Positions 2,413 to 21,109 of a DNA stretch of 64,000 nucleotides are shown here, piece by piece. Source of the DNA: a virus. The translations under genes were made by a program, and so were the position numbers. How positions within the stretch are numbered: the stretch's first letter is position 1; each line of letters begins with the position of its first letter. The notes under the pieces were generated by a model that had not been told where the DNA came from, did no database searches, and saw only the letters and a program-made list of their open reading frames with translations. The DNA is taken from positions 1-64,000 of IMG/VR virus record IMGVR_UViG_3300001450_010303. One strand, written 5' to 3'.

Positions 2413-3501
2413 ATGACCATCGATTTCGCAACCTTCCTCGCTGTCGCTCCCCACGTCCTCAACTCGCGCCTTCCGGTGCTGATCCGTGGCAAGCATGGGG
2501 TTGGTAAGTCTCAGATCGTCTATCAGATCGCGGAGAAGCGCAAGCTACCAGTGGTAGAGCGCCGCGCATCGCAGATGACCGAGGGTGATCTTCTTGGTCT
2601 GCCCGACACAGCAGACACACAGATCAATGGTCGCAAAGCTACTACGTGGAACGCCCCTGACTGGCTTGTGACGGCTTGCGAGCAGCCGGTGTGCCTATTC
2701 CTCGATGAAGTGGATCGCGCCACCTTGGAGGTGCGTCAGGGGCTCTTTGAGCTTACTGATAGCCGTAAGCTGAACGGGTGGAACCTCCACCCTGAGACCC
2801 TGATCGTCGCTGCTGTCAATGGTGGCGAGCACGGCGCTCAGTACCAAGTTGGCGAAATGGACCCCGCCGAGCTTGACCGCTGGACCGTGTTCGATGTCGA
2901 GCCTTCTACTGAAGACTGGCTCAAGTGGGCCAATGGTCGGATTCCCTCTATCGTGTGGGACTTCATTAACCATAACCGTGGCCACCTTGAGCATGAAGGT
3001 GACTATGAGCCTAACAAGGTTTATCCTTCACGCCGCTCATGGGATCGCTACTGCCAAACCGCTGAGCCGGCTGGTGTGTTCGGTGAGGAAGGGGATCGCG
3101 ATATGCTGTTCAACCTTGCGACTGCGTTCCTTGGCTTTGAGGCTGCTGTGTCCCTCCGTGACTTCGTTGAGAAGTACGAGTGGCAAGTATCGGTTGAGGA
3201 TATTCTTGACAAGGGCGACTTTTCCAAGACTTCCAAGTGGGGGATCAATGATCACTCCGCGATGATCGAGAAGTTTGATGCCGCTGGTGTGTTCAAGCCT
3301 GACTTGTCCGACGACCAGATCAGCAACCTTGCTGAATACTTCGTTGCTCTGCCTTCCGAGGTAGCTATGAAGCTGTGGAGCGTCTTGGGCGATACCGACA
3401 ACATTAACAACGTGGTATCGCTCCATAAGGCTGAAACAAAGGACGGAGCAAAGGTATCTGAACACTTGGTGGAGATCCTTGGTGGTGGTGATGACCAATG
3501 A
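2413..3501 (+). CDS. MoxR-like AAA+ ATPase
   Basis: Walker A GKHGVGKS, Walker B LFLDE, sensor AAVN, arginine finger DPAELDRW, PSRRSW. Confidence 0.9.
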   Translation: MTIDFATFLAVAPHVLNSRLPVLIRGKHGVGKSQIVYQIAEKRKLPVVERRASQMTEGDLLGLPDTADTQINGRKATTWNAPDWLVTACEQPVCLFLDEVDRATLEVRQGLFELTDSRKLNGWNLHPETLIVAAVNGGEHGAQYQVGEMDPAELDRWTVFDVEPSTEDWLKWANGRIPSIVWDFINHNRGHLEHEGDYEPNKVYPSRRSWDRYCQTAEPAGVFGEEGDRDMLFNLATAFLGFEAAVSLRDFVEKYEWQVSVEDILDKGDFSKTSKWGINDHSAMIEKFDAAGVFKPDLSDDQISNLAEYFVALPSEVAMKLWSVLGDTDNINNVVSLHKAETKDGAKVSEHLVEILGGGDDQ

Positions 3502-3728
3502 GCACTCAAGCCTTCTCACAACGTCGTCGGCCATGCGTCGGTGACGTTGTGAGGCTTAGCGCCCCCGCCAGTATTGGCCGAGCGTATAGGCGCACACACG
3601 GAGCAGGGATCGTCACAAGCATCAGTGACCCGGATGGCCGCCGTCGAGAGTATGAAGTTAAGTGGCTTAAAAGTCGAGAGAGAATGAAGTTTAATGAAGA
3701 AGACCTTATCATCGTCTCGCCTGTCTGA
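3498..3728 (+). CDS. small SH3/KOW-like protein
   Basis: CVGDVVRL...GIV...YEVKW...EEDLIIVS. Confidence 0.7.
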   Translation: MSTQAFSQRRRPCVGDVVRLSAPASIGRAYRRTHGAGIVTSISDPDGRRREYEVKWLKSRERMKFNEEDLIIVSPV

Positions 3729-3732
3729 CAAG

Positions 3733-3936
3733 GTGAGAGTAGGCGACCTGCTGACCATCGAGCGGTATAACAAAACCATACCGGCCTTAGTTCTGGAAGT
3801 TAAAGAGATCAAGTATGCTGTTGGCTATGCTGACAAGGCAAGAAAAGAGTTTAAGGTGCTCGAATCCGGCAAAGAACGATGGTACGCCGACATAGAACTA
3901 TCAGCGATATTCAAGAAACCACAAAGTAGAGAATAA
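3733..3936 (+). CDS. small SH3/KOW-like protein
   Basis: VRVGDLLTI...ALVLEV...FKVL; probable GTG start within ORF 3694..3936. Confidence 0.6.
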   Translation: MRVGDLLTIERYNKTIPALVLEVKEIKYAVGYADKARKEFKVLESGKERWYADIELSAIFKKPQSRE

Positions 3937-3938
3937 AT

Positions 3939-4355
3939 ATGAACCTAACAGCCGCAGCCATCCTATCCTATAGTTTATTGTGTCCAGCCAACAGTGATAC
4001 AATGTTCACATATCCATCGGACAAGTATTCACATTGTGTTAAAACACCCCAGCCGTTCTATAGAATAGGATCCAGGTTTATTCCTGTGCCACTTACCACT
4101 AAGAACAACTTATACCCTGATCGCCCCCATTTTTATGGTAGTGTTACGCGCAATCCGCCTTCGACTCCTTTGTTAATAAATAGGCTTTGGCCGCGTGTCA
4201 CCAAACCTCGAAGAACCAAAAAGACTCCCCGATTTTCAGTATCCTTGGAATGCAATAGACCACCCATGGGCACACCATACTATAATGTTCCGTGTTCTAC
4301 TGGATCGCCAAATAACGCTTTTTCTATAGCACTGACTTGGCGAATAACTCCTTGA
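3939..4355 (+). CDS. hypothetical protein with hydrophobic N-terminus
   Basis: ORF track; stop falls in the first box of R5. Confidence 0.55.
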   Translation: MNLTAAAILSYSLLCPANSDTMFTYPSDKYSHCVKTPQPFYRIGSRFIPVPLTTKNNLYPDRPHFYGSVTRNPPSTPLLINRLWPRVTKPRRTKKTPRFSVSLECNRPPMGTPYYNVPCSTGSPNNAFSIALTWRITP

Positions 4356-4432
4356 CACTCTCTTGACAACTTTCGCCTTGACGATAGCCCTTTTCGGTGC
4401 TATATTATAGGTATAGAAAGGAAAAAACGACT
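4352..4432 (+). promoter_or_regulatory. triple-TTGAC promoter element R5
   Basis: TTGACA 4352, TTGACA 4363, TTGACG 4378, TGn-TATATT 4401. Confidence 0.85.
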
Positions 4433-5746
4433 ATGACCACCAAAACTGACATTCCAGAGTTCGACCAAGAAACTGAGCCAACCGAGATCGCAGAGGACGC
4501 ACCTAAGACCTTTGACCTGAATAAGCATATGGCTCGTTTGCTTATGCGCGAACCATTTTTCGCTGGCCTCTCGCGTCGTATCGACAAACGCTCCAGCTAC
4601 GAAGTGCCGACCGCTGGTGTGCGAGTGAATCCAGTCACGGCCCAGTTTGAGCTACTGTATAATCCTGAGTTTTTTGCTTCTCTCAGCGATACTCACAAGT
4701 TGGGTGTTCTGAAGCATGAGTTTTATCACCTGATCTTAGAGCATGTGACCAACCGTAAGCCGGCTGATGGCCTGAAGCGGATCGATAACATCGCGATGGA
4801 CCTTGCGATCAACAGTCACATCGCCAACGAGTTGCCCAATGAGGCAAACCCTGGCCCGATCATTGTGGTCGATAAGAGTGGAAAGGGTGAGCCGATGAAG
4901 GCTTGCATCCCCGGCGAAGGCAAGCTGTTTGCTGACCTTCCAACCCATAAATCATATGAGTGGTATTTGAACGCTCTTAAAAAGATGGCTGAGGAACAGG
5001 AACAGGAACAGGACGGCGATGGCGAACCCGGTGAAGGCGGGGATCCTTTTGGCGACACCGACAGCTTTGACAGCCATGAAGGTTTCGGTGAGGCCGATGG
5101 TACCACCCAAGAGATCGCTAAGGAGCGTTTGAAGGAAACTCTCAAGAAGGCCGCCGAAGAAGCGGAGAAGGCGCGCAACTGGGGAACCGTATCGTCATCA
5201 ATGAGAAAAGATATTATGGATCGTATCGCCTCAAAAGTTGATTGGCGCAAGGTGCTACGGTACTTCGTTAAAACTTCACAACGCAGCGACAAGCGCAGTA
5301 CTCCGCGCCGCTTGAACAAGCGTTATCCTCGCGTCCATCCCGGCAAGCGCGTCCGTCGTCACGCCAAGATTGCGATCAGTATCGACCAATCTGGATCTGT
5401 GGATGATGCGATGCTTGCCGCCTTTTTCGGTGAGTTAAATAAGTTGGCCGAGATCGCAGAGTTTACCGTGGTACCATTTGATACTGTGGTTGCGGAGGAT
5501 AAGGTTTATGTCTGGAAAAAGGGCAAGACCCAAAAGACCGAGCGCGTGATGTGTGGTGGAACGTGCTTTGATGCTCCCACCAAATATGTCAATGATCGCA
5601 ACTTTGATGGTCATATTGTCTTGACCGATCTCTGCGCTCCCAAGCCGATCCGAAGCCAGTGCCAAAGAATGTGGATGACCACCAAAGCCCACGCAGCCCG
5701 CCCATACTTTTCAACCAACGAACGTATCATAGCTATCGACAGCTAA
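4433..5746 (+). CDS. HExxH metallopeptidase-like plus vWA domain protein (DUF2201-like MoxR partner)
   Basis: HEFYH, NIAMDLAIN, acidic linker, MIDAS IDQSGS, GGT, LTD; ATG 4433 follows the RBS. Confidence 0.85.
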   Translation: MTTKTDIPEFDQETEPTEIAEDAPKTFDLNKHMARLLMREPFFAGLSRRIDKRSSYEVPTAGVRVNPVTAQFELLYNPEFFASLSDTHKLGVLKHEFYHLILEHVTNRKPADGLKRIDNIAMDLAINSHIANELPNEANPGPIIVVDKSGKGEPMKACIPGEGKLFADLPTHKSYEWYLNALKKMAEEQEQEQDGDGEPGEGGDPFGDTDSFDSHEGFGEADGTTQEIAKERLKETLKKAAEEAEKARNWGTVSSSMRKDIMDRIASKVDWRKVLRYFVKTSQRSDKRSTPRRLNKRYPRVHPGKRVRRHAKIAISIDQSGSVDDAMLAAFFGELNKLAEIAEFTVVPFDTVVAEDKVYVWKKGKTQKTERVMCGGTCFDAPTKYVNDRNFDGHIVLTDLCAPKPIRSQCQRMWMTTKAHAARPYFSTNERIIAIDS

Positions 5747-18876: not shown

Positions 18877-18906
18877 TTGACAACCATGACATTAATATGT
18901 TATTAT
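18877..18906 (+). promoter_or_regulatory. sigma70-type promoter for iscU-iscA
   Basis: TTGACA 18877, 18 bp spacer, TGn-TATTAT 18901. Confidence 0.55.
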
Positions 18907-18919
18907 TAAGTAAAACAAT

Positions 18920-19315
18920 ATGACATATTCAGATAAAGTAATAGATCATTTTCAAAACCCACAGAATGTAGGCAGTATGGAACGAACCGATCCAAACGTA
19001 GGTACCGGCATGGTGGGTGCGCCGGCGTGTGGGGATGTGATGAAACTTCAATTGCGTATTAATGACGATGGTATCATCGAGGATGCTAAATTCAAAACCT
19101 TTGGCTGCGGTTCAGCAATTGCCTCTAGCTCGCTAATTACAACAATAGTTAAGGGGAAGCACATGAGCGAAGCCGCCAAAATTAGTAACTCTGATATTGC
19201 ACAGGAACTTTCTCTTCCACCGGTGAAGATTCATTGTTCTGTTTTGGCGGAGGATGCGATCAAAGCCGCAATTAAAGATTGGGAGGAAAAGCGAAATGGC
19301 TATAACGATGACTGA
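18920..19315 (+). CDS. iscU: Fe-S cluster scaffold IscU
   Basis: YSDKVIDHF, GAPACGDVM, FKTFGCGSAIASSS, LPPVKIHCSVLAEDAI. Confidence 0.97.
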   Translation: MTYSDKVIDHFQNPQNVGSMERTDPNVGTGMVGAPACGDVMKLQLRINDDGIIEDAKFKTFGCGSAIASSSLITTIVKGKHMSEAAKISNSDIAQELSLPPVKIHCSVLAEDAIKAAIKDWEEKRNGYNDD

Positions 19316-19622
19316 TTTCGCAATTCAAAAAGTATCTGGGATAATGATGAAGAGGCAGATGCCCGGTTATTATTTAAGAGTAGGGCTGAAAGGCGGCGGA
19401 TGTTCTGGGTATATGTATTCGTATGATTTTATTGAGACACCCGAAGAGAAGGACAAGATTTTTGAATTCGGAGAAGTAAAAATCTGTATTGATATCAAAT
19501 CTTACTTGTTTCTCAATGGAATGGAAATTGACTATGAAGAAGACCTTTTAAAGTCTGGATTAGTATTTAATACACCAAAGGCACAAAGATCTTGTGGTTG
19601 TGGTGAAAGCATTTCGTTTTAA
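19296..19622 (+). CDS. iscA: A-type Fe-S carrier IscA/HesB
   Basis: LRVGLKGGGCSG and CGCGESISF. Confidence 0.93.
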   Translation: MAITMTDFAIQKVSGIMMKRQMPGYYLRVGLKGGGCSGYMYSYDFIETPEEKDKIFEFGEVKICIDIKSYLFLNGMEIDYEEDLLKSGLVFNTPKAQRSCGCGESISF

Positions 19623-19637
19623 GGAATATATAGTTAT

Positions 19638-20063
19638 ATGAAACTCCTACTTGAAAATTGGAGAGAATATCTGAAAGAGGAGGAAGTCGAAGAGGGATTA
19701 TCTTCAAAATTAGCCCTAGGTGCGGCACTTGCTGGGGGTATTAGTCCAGCCATGGCACAAGACACGAGTGGTGTCGACACCGCCGAAAAAACCCAACAGG
19801 TGGATAAAGCAGAAGATACTTCAAATTTGGTGAAGAACAAAGACGGGACGTACAGCTTAACATTAGATATCCCGGGACATTTTCAAAAGTTAAGCCCGGG
19901 CATGAAGCGGACATTCCTGCAGAACTGGGCAAGAACTGAATTTGCAAAGAAAATGGCTGGAGCATTAGACGGTGAAGCCTATCAGTTAGAGATGTCCGGA
20001 AGATTGTCATCTATGACAGAAGATACTGTAACTTTTACCGGTACTGTAAATATCATAAAATGA
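19638..20063 (+). CDS. protein with MKLLLENW leader followed by a signal-peptide-like segment
   Basis: MKLLLENWREYLKEEEVEE-GLSSKLALGAALAGGISPAMA-Q. Confidence 0.75.
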   Translation: MKLLLENWREYLKEEEVEEGLSSKLALGAALAGGISPAMAQDTSGVDTAEKTQQVDKAEDTSNLVKNKDGTYSLTLDIPGHFQKLSPGMKRTFLQNWARTEFAKKMAGALDGEAYQLEMSGRLSSMTEDTVTFTGTVNIIK

Positions 20064-20761
20064 AACTCCTACTTGAAAATTGGCGAAAGTTTGTCAATGA
20101 AGAGATGGAAGAACCCATCACGACCCTTCGCATCTTCGACTTCGATGAGACAATAGCCCATACGAGGTCAGAAACCCGTGTTAAAGCCCCCGACGGCTCC
20201 GAAGCGACCCTGAGTGACCAGCAGGAGTTTGAAGCCTATATGAACGCAGCTGCAGTGAAAGAAGGAATAGAAGCTTTTGACGCCGTGGATGCTTTGATGG
20301 AGTTGGGTTATCAAATTGATTTAAGCGACTTTTCGATTGTTAAAGATCCAGATGAAATCGTGATCATCACTGATATTATGCGTGAGTTCCCACCAGATTC
20401 TAAAACTTATATTATGACCGCAAGGCGGGGAAATTCAATCGGGCCAATTATCGATTATCTTGATGAGATTAATATTGATTCTTCACAAGTTAGAATAATG
20501 GCCACACAGGGAGAATCTAAAGGGGATGTGATGGCGCAGATGCTTAGACAAAAATTGATGTCTGACGGAAAATCAAATATTAATCGCATCGAATATTATG
20601 AGGATTCTGAGAAGAATATCGATGATGTGTTAGCGAAGGTTTGCGAGAACCCAAAGTTAATTGATATTAAACCAATAGATTTTGAGCTAATCATTAACAA
20701 AGTTATTAATAATGATGGCCAGTATAATATTCATCGGATTGAATGTAAGACTCCGGACTAA
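20060..20761 (+). CDS. HAD-superfamily phosphatase-like protein with MKLLLENW leader
   Basis: FDFDETI (DxDxT), MTARR, K, YEDSEKN. Confidence 0.8.
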   Translation: MKLLLENWRKFVNEEMEEPITTLRIFDFDETIAHTRSETRVKAPDGSEATLSDQQEFEAYMNAAAVKEGIEAFDAVDALMELGYQIDLSDFSIVKDPDEIVIITDIMREFPPDSKTYIMTARRGNSIGPIIDYLDEINIDSSQVRIMATQGESKGDVMAQMLRQKLMSDGKSNINRIEYYEDSEKNIDDVLAKVCENPKLIDIKPIDFELIINKVINNDGQYNIHRIECKTPD

Positions 20762-20785: not shown

Positions 20786-21109
20786 ATGGCAGAAACAAAC
20801 GGGTGGGATACCTACTCAAAATTAGTGTTACAACAACTTGAATCTCTTTCTGGTGGTATTGATGGGTTGCAGTCTGAGTTACAAGATGTTAAAGAACAGC
20901 TAACTGAACTTAAGGCAAAAGAGGATAGGGTTCAAGATTTAAAGTCCTGGAAAGAGAAGTTTGATGAAGTAGCTTCACCTACTCAACTGCAAATAAGATT
21001 TGAAGAAATCGAAGAGTTAAAAGAGTTTAAGACAAAAGCGGTTACCATGTTTATGGTTGTACAAGCGGCCATGGCCTTTGGTATGGCCATCGCTCTCGAA
21101 ATATTCTAG
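20786..21109 (+). CDS. coiled-coil protein with C-terminal TM helix
   Basis: GAGGA RBS; heptad pattern, hydrophobic tail. Confidence 0.75.
   Translation: MAETNGWDTYSKLVLQQLESLSGGIDGLQSELQDVKEQLTELKAKEDRVQDLKSWKEKFDEVASPTQLQIRFEEIEELKEFKTKAVTMFMVVQAAMAFGMAIALEIF

What the first reader, a model, noticed from the sequence alone, without database searches (positions are those of the whole stretch)
19638..20063. Sec-type signal peptide hidden behind the acidic leader
Seen: after ...KEEEVEE comes GLSSKLALGAALAGGISPAMA-QD, i.e. a basic residue, a hydrophobic core and an A-x-A site. Inference: two-step addressing. The leader masks export during synthesis and directs packaging; cleavage after Glu exposes the signal, so the ejected protein is exported or membrane-inserted in the next host. 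This is speculative, and I know of no description of such a route.
Basis: inference. Interest (0 to 1): 0.7.

Follow-up and report, generated by a model that had tools for sequence, protein, structure and literature searches.

The report
Hidden export signal behind phage leader
A small protein of an uncultured marine T4-like phage carries a removable tag, like the one T4 uses to load proteins into its head, directly in front of what looks like a bacterial export signal; all relatives keep this layout, which hints (untested) that a protein injected with the phage DNA is sent on to the new host's membrane or periplasm.

Summary
ORF 19638-20063 (141 aa) reads: 14-residue ENWR leader, five acidic residues ending V-E-E, then Gly20, a Lys, an Ala/Leu/Gly hydrophobic core, Pro and A-M-A|Q-D.

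All 20 family members found (31-100% identity) keep this order: a hydrophobic-x-Glu site, then Gly (Asn in one), then the hydrophobic segment. One member carries a different leader type. Two members are in-frame fusions in which the site plus hydrophobic module lies 155-250 residues inside the chain.

Uncut, the hydrophobic segment has acidic flanks on both sides. Cut after the Glu, all 20 obey the positive-inside rule, and 15 of 20 pass a crude n-h-c test (0 of 20 uncut).

A second, unrelated cargo family shows the same layout with both leader types. One ENWR protein carries a Tat signal that scores above the curated cut-off at residues 64-92.

More complete relatives encode a T4 gp21-type head protease, with leader-bearing small genes beside it.

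Packaging, cutting and export are all inferred. Points against: the hydrophobic segment is more conserved than the mature domain, 3-5 members lack the A-x-A site or the Lys, and the operon looks early.

This scan noted the same theme earlier on other phage DNA. First reading: partly supported, about 35%.

The parts
19638..20063 (+). Whole ORF, 141 aa plus stop. Order: leader, acidic spacer, signal-like segment, disordered linker, small alpha/beta domain.
   Evidence: homologs
19638..19679 (+). Residues 1-14: ENWR-type shared N-terminal leader, predicted amphipathic helix 3-14. It holds two hydrophobic-x-Glu motifs, ending at E6 and E14.
   Evidence: Same leader on ORFs 15529 and 20060 and on 292 distinct ORFs in related viral DNA. 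The motif ends at E14 in 81% of them. Helix.
19680..19697 (+). Residues 15-20: acidic spacer ending V17-E18-E19 followed by G20. This is the candidate prohead-protease site at the junction.
   Evidence: Hydrophobic-x-Glu then Gly in 19 of 20 members, then Asn in the 20th. T4 gp21 cuts after L/I-x-E (PMC9026906).
19695..19709 (+). Residues 20-24 (G-L-S-S-K): would-be n-region after a cut. Charge is +2 counting the new amino group.
   Evidence: Lys or Arg present in 15 of 20 members
19710..19742 (+). Residues 25-35: Ala/Leu/Gly-rich hydrophobic core (h-region).
   Evidence: Uncharged runs of 15-20 residues, mean Kyte-Doolittle 0.9-1.6, in 20 of 20 members. G33 is invariant.
19743..19757 (+). Residues 36-40 (S-P-A-M-A): c-region with Pro at -4 and small residues at -3 and -1. 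The candidate signal-peptidase I cut lies between A40 and Q41.
   Evidence: For comparison, the ordinary signal of ORF 14352 ends S-V-A then Q-D.
19758..19820 (+). Residues 41-61: Thr/Asp/Gln-rich, low-confidence linker containing the nearly invariant T-Q-Q-V-D motif.
   Evidence: pLDDT under 50. T52, Q54 and D56 conserved.
19821..20060 (+). Residues 62-141: small alpha/beta domain of unknown function.
   Evidence: pLDDT about 80. Best fold matches reach only Z 6.2 or TM about 0.55. No Pfam, PHROG or NCBIfam hit.
20060..20761 (+). Next gene: an ENWR-led, HAD-phosphatase-like protein. Its ATG overlaps the stop codon of the ORF (ATGA).
15529..15984 (+). Third ENWR-led ORF in the window. Its cargo is unrelated and has no hydrophobic segment.
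18877..18906 (+). Best sigma-70-like promoter match in 14-22.5 kb, upstream of iscU. It probably drives iscU, iscA, ORF 19638 and ORF 20060.
   Evidence: 11 of 12 matches, with extended -10 TG. No TATAAATA late-promoter box nearby.

Best explanation
The ORF encodes a two-address protein.

1. Inferred by analogy: the ENWR leader, an amphipathic helix followed by an acidic tail, docks the protein to the assembling prohead core, as the T4 capsid-targeting sequence does.
2. Inferred from a conserved motif: the T4-type head protease cuts after Glu14 and again after the conserved V-E-E19, removing every acidic residue.
3. Shown at sequence level: the product then starts at Gly20 with a short basic n-region, an Ala/Leu/Gly h-region and a Pro-Ala-x-Ala c-region. 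That is the anatomy of a Sec/signal-peptidase-I signal or a weak membrane-insertion helix. In the uncut precursor the acidic N-flank cancels this anatomy.
4. Inferred: the trimmed protein leaves the capsid unfolded with the DNA and is taken to the inner membrane or periplasm of the newly infected cell. There its small C-terminal domain acts before any phage gene is expressed, for example against envelope-level defence or superinfection.
For: - **Conserved junction.** A hydrophobic-x-Glu site followed by Gly (Asn in one member) lies directly before the hydrophobic segment in all 20 members at 31-100% identity.
- **Leader swap.** One member (P0011, also L004:192-626) carries the other leader type but keeps the site and the hydrophobic module.
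- **Fusions.** Two in-frame fusions keep one leader at the N-terminus and the site plus hydrophobic module deep inside the chain: L011:9269-10378 (370 aa) and P0017 (274 aa). There it could reach an N-terminus only by cleavage.
- **Charge balance.** Uncut, the mean N-flank charge is -3.65 and the C-flank -2.5. N minus C is zero or negative in 15 of 20. After the cut, N minus C is positive in 20 of 20, mean +4.3.
- **Heuristic n-h-c test.** 0 of 20 pass uncut and 15 of 20 pass cut.
- **Recurrence on unrelated cargo.** L029:4225-4761 and P0020 (56% identical) share only the 14-residue leader with this family. They occur with both leader types and have an [I/L]-Q-E site, a basic n-region, an h-region and P-N-P-A-x-A.
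- **Tat example.** ENWR protein L036:7284-8471 has a Tat signal at residues 64-92. TIGR01409 scores 25.9 bits against a cut-off of 16.7.
- **Site placement.** Among leader-bearing ORFs, N-proximal hydrophobic runs are directly preceded by hydrophobic-x-Glu in 6-7 of 9 families. About 16% is expected. None of 14 runs further downstream has one.
- **Protease in relatives.** G001, G002 and G004 encode a gp21-type protease. In the complete G001, ENWR-like and second-type leaders head three small ORFs just upstream of it.
- **Published specificity.** T4 gp21 cuts after L/I-x-E, and internal-protein propeptides are 10-19 residues long (PMC9026906).
Against: - There are no virion, cleavage or export data for any ENWR phage. 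No cultured relative carries the leader.
- The own record (57% complete) holds no protease or head genes.
- The gene sits behind a strong sigma-70-like promoter together with iscU and iscA, with no late-promoter box.
- In divergent pairs the hydrophobic and c-region segment is 48% identical while the mature domain is 24%. G33 is invariant. Sec signals usually drift faster than mature parts, although the Ala/Leu/Gly composition inflates identity.
- Five members lack a basic residue and three or four lack a usable A-x-A site. L011 has Pro at +1.
- No leaderless, plainly secreted homolog exists to prove the segment is a signal.
- Only about 4% of leader-bearing ORFs have such a segment.
- Sec export of an ejected phage protein has no described precedent in the literature I searched.
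Confidence: 0.35

Rival explanations
1. The protein is exported or membrane-inserted in the producing cell. The hydrophobic segment works as an N-terminally extended or internal signal (or signal anchor), and signal peptidase cuts at A-M-A|Q. The leader stays on the cytoplasmic side and has another role: slowing export, docking at the membrane-bound prohead assembly site, or being removed by a cytoplasmic protease to time export late in infection.
For: - The signal-like anatomy and c-region are conserved.
- Early-type promoter context.
- The phage encodes ordinary secreted proteins, so periplasmic functions in the producer are plausible (ORF 14352).
- T4 proheads assemble on the inner membrane (PMC9026906).
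- Extended signal peptides exist in autotransporters (own knowledge).
Against: - The uncut N-flank is strongly acidic (mean -3.65), and charge balance across the segment is neutral or inverted in 15 of 20 members.
- 0 of 20 members pass the n-h-c test uncut.
- Ordinary secreted proteins of this phage need no leader.
- In the fusions the segment lies 155-250 residues in. P0017 would then have two hydrophobic segments, placing the domain on the wrong side.
- This reading does not explain the conserved hydrophobic-x-Glu-Gly junction.
Confidence: 0.25
2. The Ala/Leu/Gly segment is not an export signal. It is a specific structural helix with small-xxx-small packing that serves oligomerisation, binding to the scaffolding core or another partner, or direct insertion into the host membrane without Sec (a pore-forming or ejection-conduit role). 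The protein may still be packaged through its leader.
For: - The segment is twice as conserved as the C-terminal domain, with invariant G33 and nearly invariant A26 and A30.
- The composition is restricted to Ala, Leu and Gly.
- Hydrophobicity is marginal, at mean Kyte-Doolittle 0.9-1.6.
- The A-x-A site and the basic residue are missing in several members.
- Some other leader-bearing proteins have true transmembrane segments rather than cleavable signals (L004:4827, L016:8793, L111).
Against: - A Pro at -4 to -6 with small residues at -3 and -1, followed by an acidic disordered linker, is conserved in 13-15 of 20 members. The same pattern occurs in the unrelated L029/P0020 family.
- A Tat signal scoring above its curated cut-off in another ENWR protein shows that true export signals do occur behind this leader.
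Confidence: 0.25
3. The shared start is mainly a nucleotide-level cassette (a recombination handle or translation-initiation element) with no protein-sorting role. The protein is then simply cytoplasmic or poorly exported.
For: - The first 24 nt are identical in ORFs 19638 and 20060.
- Across 253 leaders, synonymous codons are strongly fixed against the genes' own usage: L3 is CTC in 57% versus 9% in gene bodies, L4 is CTA in 62% versus 12%, and R9 is CGA in 49% versus 15%.
Against: - Positions 10-14 vary by conservative amino-acid replacement.
- A second leader with a different sequence but the same physical type replaces the ENWR leader in two families.
- Both leader types head small genes next to the head protease.
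Confidence: 0.1

Closest known systems
Capsid targeting sequence (CTS) of phage T4 internal proteins IPI, IPII, IPIII and Alt, removed by the gp21 prohead protease
   Same: Both are short N-terminal propeptides (10-19 residues in T4, 14-19 here) shared by unrelated cargo, ending in hydrophobic-x-Glu. Relatives encode a gp21-type protease. Leader-bearing small genes lie next to that protease.
   Different: - The leader sequence differs.
- The leader heads hundreds of ORFs rather than four.
- No T4 internal protein is known to expose an export signal after trimming.
- Packaging is untested here.
Sec-type (signal peptidase I) signal peptides of Gram-negative bacteria
   Same: After removal of residues 1-19 the protein has a basic n-region, an 11-residue h-core, Pro at -4, A-x-A at -3 and -1, and an acidic mature start.
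   Different: - The segment is not N-terminal in the primary product.
- Its N-flank is acidic.
- Its sequence is more conserved than the mature domain.
- The h-region is unusually rich in Ala and Gly.
Extended signal peptide region (ESPR) of autotransporters and other long signal peptides (own knowledge)
   Same: In both, a conserved N-terminal extension of about 20-25 residues precedes a normal n-h-c signal.
   Different: - The ESPR is basic and hydrophobic, and it is part of the signal itself.
- The extension here is acidic, is also found on many non-secreted proteins, and is separated from the signal by a protease-type site.
SAR (signal-anchor-release) domains of phage endolysins and of the T4 antiholin RI (own knowledge)
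   Same: Both are weakly hydrophobic, Gly/Ala-rich segments near the N-terminus of a small phage protein.
   Different: - SAR domains are N-terminal with a basic start and are not preceded by an acidic shared leader.
- The cargo here shows no lysin or antiholin similarity.
Ejection proteins that enter the host envelope (T7 gp14-16, P22 gp7/gp20/gp16; own knowledge)
   Same: Both are virion-carried proteins whose destination is the host envelope rather than the cytoplasm.
   Different: - Those proteins leave podovirus capsids and assemble a conduit from outside.
- They use no Sec-type signal and no CTS-type leader.

Membership tests
Sec / signal peptidase I signal peptide | Located at the N-terminus of the translated protein | tested here: not met
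   The segment starts at residue 20-25 behind the leader, and at about residue 155 and 250 in the fusions P0017 and L011. There is no internal start codon.
Sec / signal peptidase I signal peptide | Net positive n-region | tested here: inconclusive
   The uncut N-flank has a mean charge of -3.65. After a cut at Glu19 it is +1 to +3 in 20 of 20 members, counting the new amino group. Lys or Arg is present in 15 of 20.
Sec / signal peptidase I signal peptide | Uncharged hydrophobic h-region of about 7-15 residues | tested here: met
   Uncharged runs of 15-20 residues with mean Kyte-Doolittle 0.9-1.6 occur in 20 of 20 members.
Sec / signal peptidase I signal peptide | c-region with small neutral residues at -3 and -1 and no Pro at +1 | tested here: inconclusive
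   A-[M/Y/H]-A or a similar site is present in 13-15 of 20 members. It is absent or blocked in L008, P0015 and L011.
Sec / signal peptidase I signal peptide | Export and cleavage demonstrated or predicted by a trained predictor | not testable with these tools
   No SignalP or DeepTMHMM was available. Only my own heuristic was run.
T4-type capsid targeting sequence | Short N-terminal peptide shared by otherwise unrelated proteins of one phage lineage | tested here: met
   Three ORFs carry it in this genome and 292 distinct ORFs in 1.4 Mb of related viral DNA. A profile comparison aligns only the 14-residue leader between two cargo families.
T4-type capsid targeting sequence | Ends in the L/I-x-E motif of the head protease | tested here: met
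   The motif ends at E14 in 81% of ENWR leaders. This family has a further conserved site at E19. The motif is defined in PMC9026906.
T4-type capsid targeting sequence | Phage encodes a gp21-family prohead protease | tested here: inconclusive
   PF03420 is found in relatives G001, G002 and G004. It is not found in the own 105-kb, 57%-complete record.
T4-type capsid targeting sequence | Tagged proteins are found, trimmed, inside virions | not testable with these tools
   No cultured relative or proteome exists.
Tat signal peptide | Twin-arginine motif before the h-region | tested here: not met
   ORF 19638 has no R-R, and NCBIfam gives no hit. A Tat signal is present in a different ENWR protein, L036:7284-8471.
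Lipoprotein (signal peptidase II) signal | Lipobox with Cys at +1 | tested here: not met
   Residues 1-60 contain no Cys.
Double-glycine (C39 peptidase) leader | G-G or G-A/S at -2 and -1 of the cut site | tested here: not met
   The junction is E-G, with Glu invariant at -2 relative to a cut after Gly.
Type IV prepilin signal | Basic leader, G|F/M, and Glu at +5 | tested here: not met
   The leader is acidic, Lys sits at +4, and there is no Glu at +5.

The most novel reading that the evidence does not exclude
T4-like marine phages pre-load their capsids with proteins whose bacterial export signals (Sec-type here, Tat-type in a relative) are kept silent by a removable head-loading leader. The head protease unmasks the signal. 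The protein is injected unfolded with the DNA and is then exported by the new host's own translocon to the periplasm or inner membrane. The phage thereby gets envelope-acting factors within seconds of infection, before any gene is expressed.
Probability: 0.3. Interest if true: 0.85.

Novelty: new variant of a known kind. Interest (0 to 1): 0.6.

Why it matters
If real, this would be a new delivery route. Virion-carried proteins would be re-addressed by host Sec or Tat machinery to the periplasm of the cell just infected.

It would widen the known targets of injected phage proteins from cytoplasmic ones (restriction inhibitors, RNA polymerase modifiers) to the envelope. Possible envelope roles include superinfection exclusion, periplasmic nucleases and envelope-level defence.

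It would also make such effectors predictable from sequence: a leader, then a hydrophobic-x-Glu site, then an export signal.

It gives a simple logic for why an acidic propeptide sits in front of a signal, namely masking in the producer cell. Even if export is wrong, the conserved and swappable three-part N-terminus is a clean handle for testing what the widespread ENWR leader does.

Tried and rejected
**Searches that found nothing**

- Cultured-phage relatives: megablast of 15-24 kb, and tblastn of the ORF, of the HAD neighbour and of a 22-residue leader, all returned no match.
- Pfam, PHROGs and NCBIfam give no hit for the ORF.
- Fold searches gave no match above noise. VIA-align over 48,161 chains reached Z 6.2 at best (trigger-factor N domain, Lpp20). 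Foldseek on BFVD found nothing at E <= 0.001. ESM Atlas structure neighbours reached TM about 0.55 (trigger-factor N, SIMPL).
- An HMMER scan of residues 21-141 against 1.84 billion representatives gave 8 hits and no leaderless homolog.
- Full-text searches found neither the leader motif nor a described route by which ejected proteins are Sec-exported.
- A scan for relatives of the Tat-bearing ENWR protein found only identical copies.

**Leads rejected**

- The weak similarity to repeats of a dockerin-bearing 1,218-aa protein (29% over 109 residues) is probably spurious. The predicted fold contains a long helix.
- An internal alternative start is ruled out for this ORF. The L029 family, however, has a conserved Met at the start of its signal-like part.
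- Tat, lipobox, double-glycine and prepilin readings are rejected by direct reading of the sequence.
- There is no late-promoter TATAAATA box near the gene.

**Tool failures**

- One script call and one Atlas call (40) returned nothing.

Full report
**What is there**

The window is the first 64 kb of a 105-kb IMG/VR virus record, estimated 57% complete. The record carries T4-type baseplate genes further on.

In order it contains:

- a 14-residue leader also found on ORFs 15529 and 20060;
- five acidic residues ending V17-E18-E19;
- G20 and L-S-S-K24;
- an uncharged Ala/Leu/Gly run, L25-A40;
- P37 and A38-M39-A40, followed by Q41-D42.

No in-frame start codon lies between the leader and the hydrophobic run, so a leaderless isoform is not expected. 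The stop codon overlaps the ATG of the next ENWR-led gene.

An AlphaFold2 model gives a helix at 3-14, a helix at 21-31, a disordered stretch to residue 61 (pLDDT under 50), and a small alpha/beta domain at 62-141 (pLDDT about 80).

**Conservation**

- A word-indexed search of 5.8 billion proteins gave 10 relatives.
- An exhaustive HMMER scan of 1.84 billion representatives with residues 21-141 gave only 8 hits. Every true relative has an N-terminal extension of about 22 residues, and none is leaderless.
- IMG/VR gave further diverged copies in L005 (two paralogs), L006, L007 and L008.

In the 20-sequence alignment A2 (31-100% identity), a hydrophobic-x-Glu site is followed by Gly in 19 members and by Asn in one. 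A hydrophobic run of 15-20 uncharged residues follows in all 20. G33 is invariant, and E19, G20, A26, A30 and P37 are nearly so. A small-x-small c-region is present in 13-15 members.

**Modularity**

The leader is a swappable module, while the site and the hydrophobic segment belong to the cargo.

- P0011 (also L004:192-626) is a clear family member but begins with a different shared leader, the "Q-L-[K/R]-Q-I-I-[K/R]-E-E" type. That type also heads three ORFs of this genome at 99966, 100422 and 104749. P0011 keeps an L-D-E site, a basic n-region, the hydrophobic run and S-Y-A.
- L011:9269-10378 (370 aa) is an in-frame fusion. A complete 213-aa-type ENWR protein (47% identical over 200 residues to L020:10001-10639) runs into L-N-E, Gly, the hydrophobic run and the family domain.
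- P0017 (274 aa) is a second in-frame fusion. Another ENWR protein runs into I-E-E, Gly, the hydrophobic run and A-M-A|Q-D.

In both fusions there is a single leader at the N-terminus, and the signal-like segment lies 155-250 residues in.

**How signal-like is it?**

SignalP was not available, so I measured simple properties.

- Uncut, the 15 residues before the hydrophobic run carry a mean charge of -3.65 and the 15 after it -2.5. The N-minus-C balance is zero or negative in 15 of 20 members, which is wrong for a signal.
- After a cut behind the Glu, the N-flank becomes +1 to +3, counting the new amino group. The balance is then positive in 20 of 20, mean +4.3.
- On a crude n-h-c test, 0 of 20 members pass uncut and 15 of 20 pass cut. 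The five failures lack Lys or Arg. Background rates are 6.0% of 1,535 ORF N-termini and 1.3% of internal positions.
- The same window has an ordinary secreted protein without a leader (ORF 14352), whose signal ends S-V-A|Q-D.

So the acidic leader is expected to silence the segment, and removing it gives a textbook layout. That acidic n-regions impair Sec recognition is established knowledge and was not tested here.

**Generality**

In 1.42 Mb of related viral DNA I found 292 distinct ENWR-led ORFs and 60 led by the second type. Most have no hydrophobic segment.

Of roughly nine families with a hydrophobic run in the first 60 residues, six or seven have hydrophobic-x-Glu within 0-9 residues upstream. 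About 16% is expected from the local motif frequency. None of 14 runs further downstream has one. This count is post hoc and small.

Two cases stand out.

- L029:4225-4761 and its 56%-identical relative P0020 share nothing but the leader with the present family. They occur with the ENWR leader and with the second leader respectively. Both read [I/L]-Q-E, Ala, a basic n-region, an h-region and P-N-P-A-x-A|D-K.
- L036:7284-8471, another ENWR protein, carries a twin-arginine signal at residues 64-92. It matches TIGR01409 over the full model at 25.9 bits, against a curated cut-off of 16.7, and is preceded by L-V-E-Q-E.

Real export signals therefore do sit behind this leader.

**Link to the head**

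The more complete relatives G001 (191 kb, 100% complete), G002 and G004 encode a gp21-family protease (PF03420, about 100 bits). It is about 50% identical to those of Flavobacterium and cyanobacterial T4-like phages.

In G001 the small ORFs just upstream of the protease start with an ENWR-like leader (152 aa) and with the second leader type (88 and 161 aa). T4 has the prohead-core genes 67 and 68 at that position (own knowledge).

T4 gp21 cuts after L/I-x-E. The internal-protein propeptides are 10-19 residues long and act as capsid-targeting sequences (PMC9026906). The ENWR leader itself contains such motifs ending at E6 (98%) and E14 (81%).

**Evidence against the two-step route**

- Packaging, cleavage, ejection and export have not been observed for any ENWR phage, and no cultured phage carries the leader.
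- The own record lacks head genes.
- The gene follows iscU and iscA behind the best sigma-70-like promoter of the region (18877-18906). No late-promoter box is nearby.
- Among divergent pairs the hydrophobic and c-region segment is 48% identical, against 24% for the mature domain. It also has an invariant Gly. This fits a sequence-specific helix better than a generic signal, although low-complexity composition inflates identity.
- Several members lack the basic residue or a usable cleavage site.
- The mature domain gives no functional clue.

**Verdict**

| Reading | Probability |
|---|---|
| Export in the producer cell | about 0.25 |
| Non-export structural or membrane-active helix | about 0.25 |
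| Nucleotide-level cassette with no sorting role | about 0.1 |

The system works like the T4 capsid-targeting sequence combined with a Sec signal. Membership in either class cannot be claimed. The signal is not N-terminal in the primary product, and packaging is untested.

Earlier notes of this scan describe the same theme (Sec or Tat signals behind protease-type sites) in other phage lineages, and the ENWR leader itself. I treated them as leads only. The Tat example and the second family reported here came from my own survey.

**Tool problems**

One script call and one Atlas call (40) failed.

Noticed in passing
window 19638-19661 and 20060-20083; 253 leaders in loci L004-L142: Leader codons are fixed at synonymous sites against the genes' own usage. 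L3 is CTC in 57% versus 9% in gene bodies, L4 is CTA in 62% versus 12%, and R9 is CGA in 49% versus 15%. This suggests nucleotide-level selection or spread of the leader by recombination.
   Followed up: partly
G000 beyond the window: 99966-100385, 100422-101333, 104749-105096: A second shared N-terminal leader type (M-K-[I/V]-T, then Q-L-K-Q-I-I-K-E-E) heads three ORFs. In two cargo families it replaces the ENWR leader (P0011, P0020).
   Followed up: partly
L143 (G001:145500-153500), ORFs 2603-3061, 3407-3673, 3773-4258, protease 4255-4854: In a complete relative, small ORFs carrying ENWR-like and second-type leaders lie directly upstream of the gp21-type protease, at the position of the T4 prohead-core genes.
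   Followed up: partly
L036:7284-8471: An ENWR-led 396-aa protein has a twin-arginine signal scoring above its curated cut-off at residues 64-92 (TIGR01409, 25.9 bits). Only two identical copies were found in IMG/VR.
   Followed up: partly
L004:4827-6398: A 524-aa protein with a second-type leader, a 26-residue transmembrane-like segment, and two further internal copies of the leader-like motif. It may be a polyprotein of leader-tagged modules.
   Followed up: no
L146:415-2295 (major capsid protein of G001): The N-terminal propeptide of the major capsid protein contains L-L-S-K-W-K-K followed by L-L-E-G, which resembles the ENWR leader. A likely L-R-E|S maturation site follows. The leader may mimic the part of the capsid protein that binds the core.
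   Followed up: no
window 19788-19805 (residues 51-56): The T-Q-Q-V-D motif in the otherwise variable, disordered linker is nearly invariant across the family. Its function is unknown.
   Followed up: no
window 20786-21109: A 107-aa coiled-coil protein with a C-terminal transmembrane segment and a weak PHROG holin hit (phrog_689, E 2.4e-4) lies two genes downstream.
   Followed up: no
window 18920-19622: The phage encodes IscU (NifU_N, E 2e-52) and an IscA/HesB-like protein (E 6e-17) in the same operon as the ENWR genes.
   Followed up: no
P0017 (274 aa), residues about 85-125: The N-terminal partner in this fusion itself has an I-S-E site, a basic stretch and an Ala/Val/Gly hydrophobic run. 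The fusion therefore joins two proteins of the leader-plus-signal-like type.
   Followed up: no
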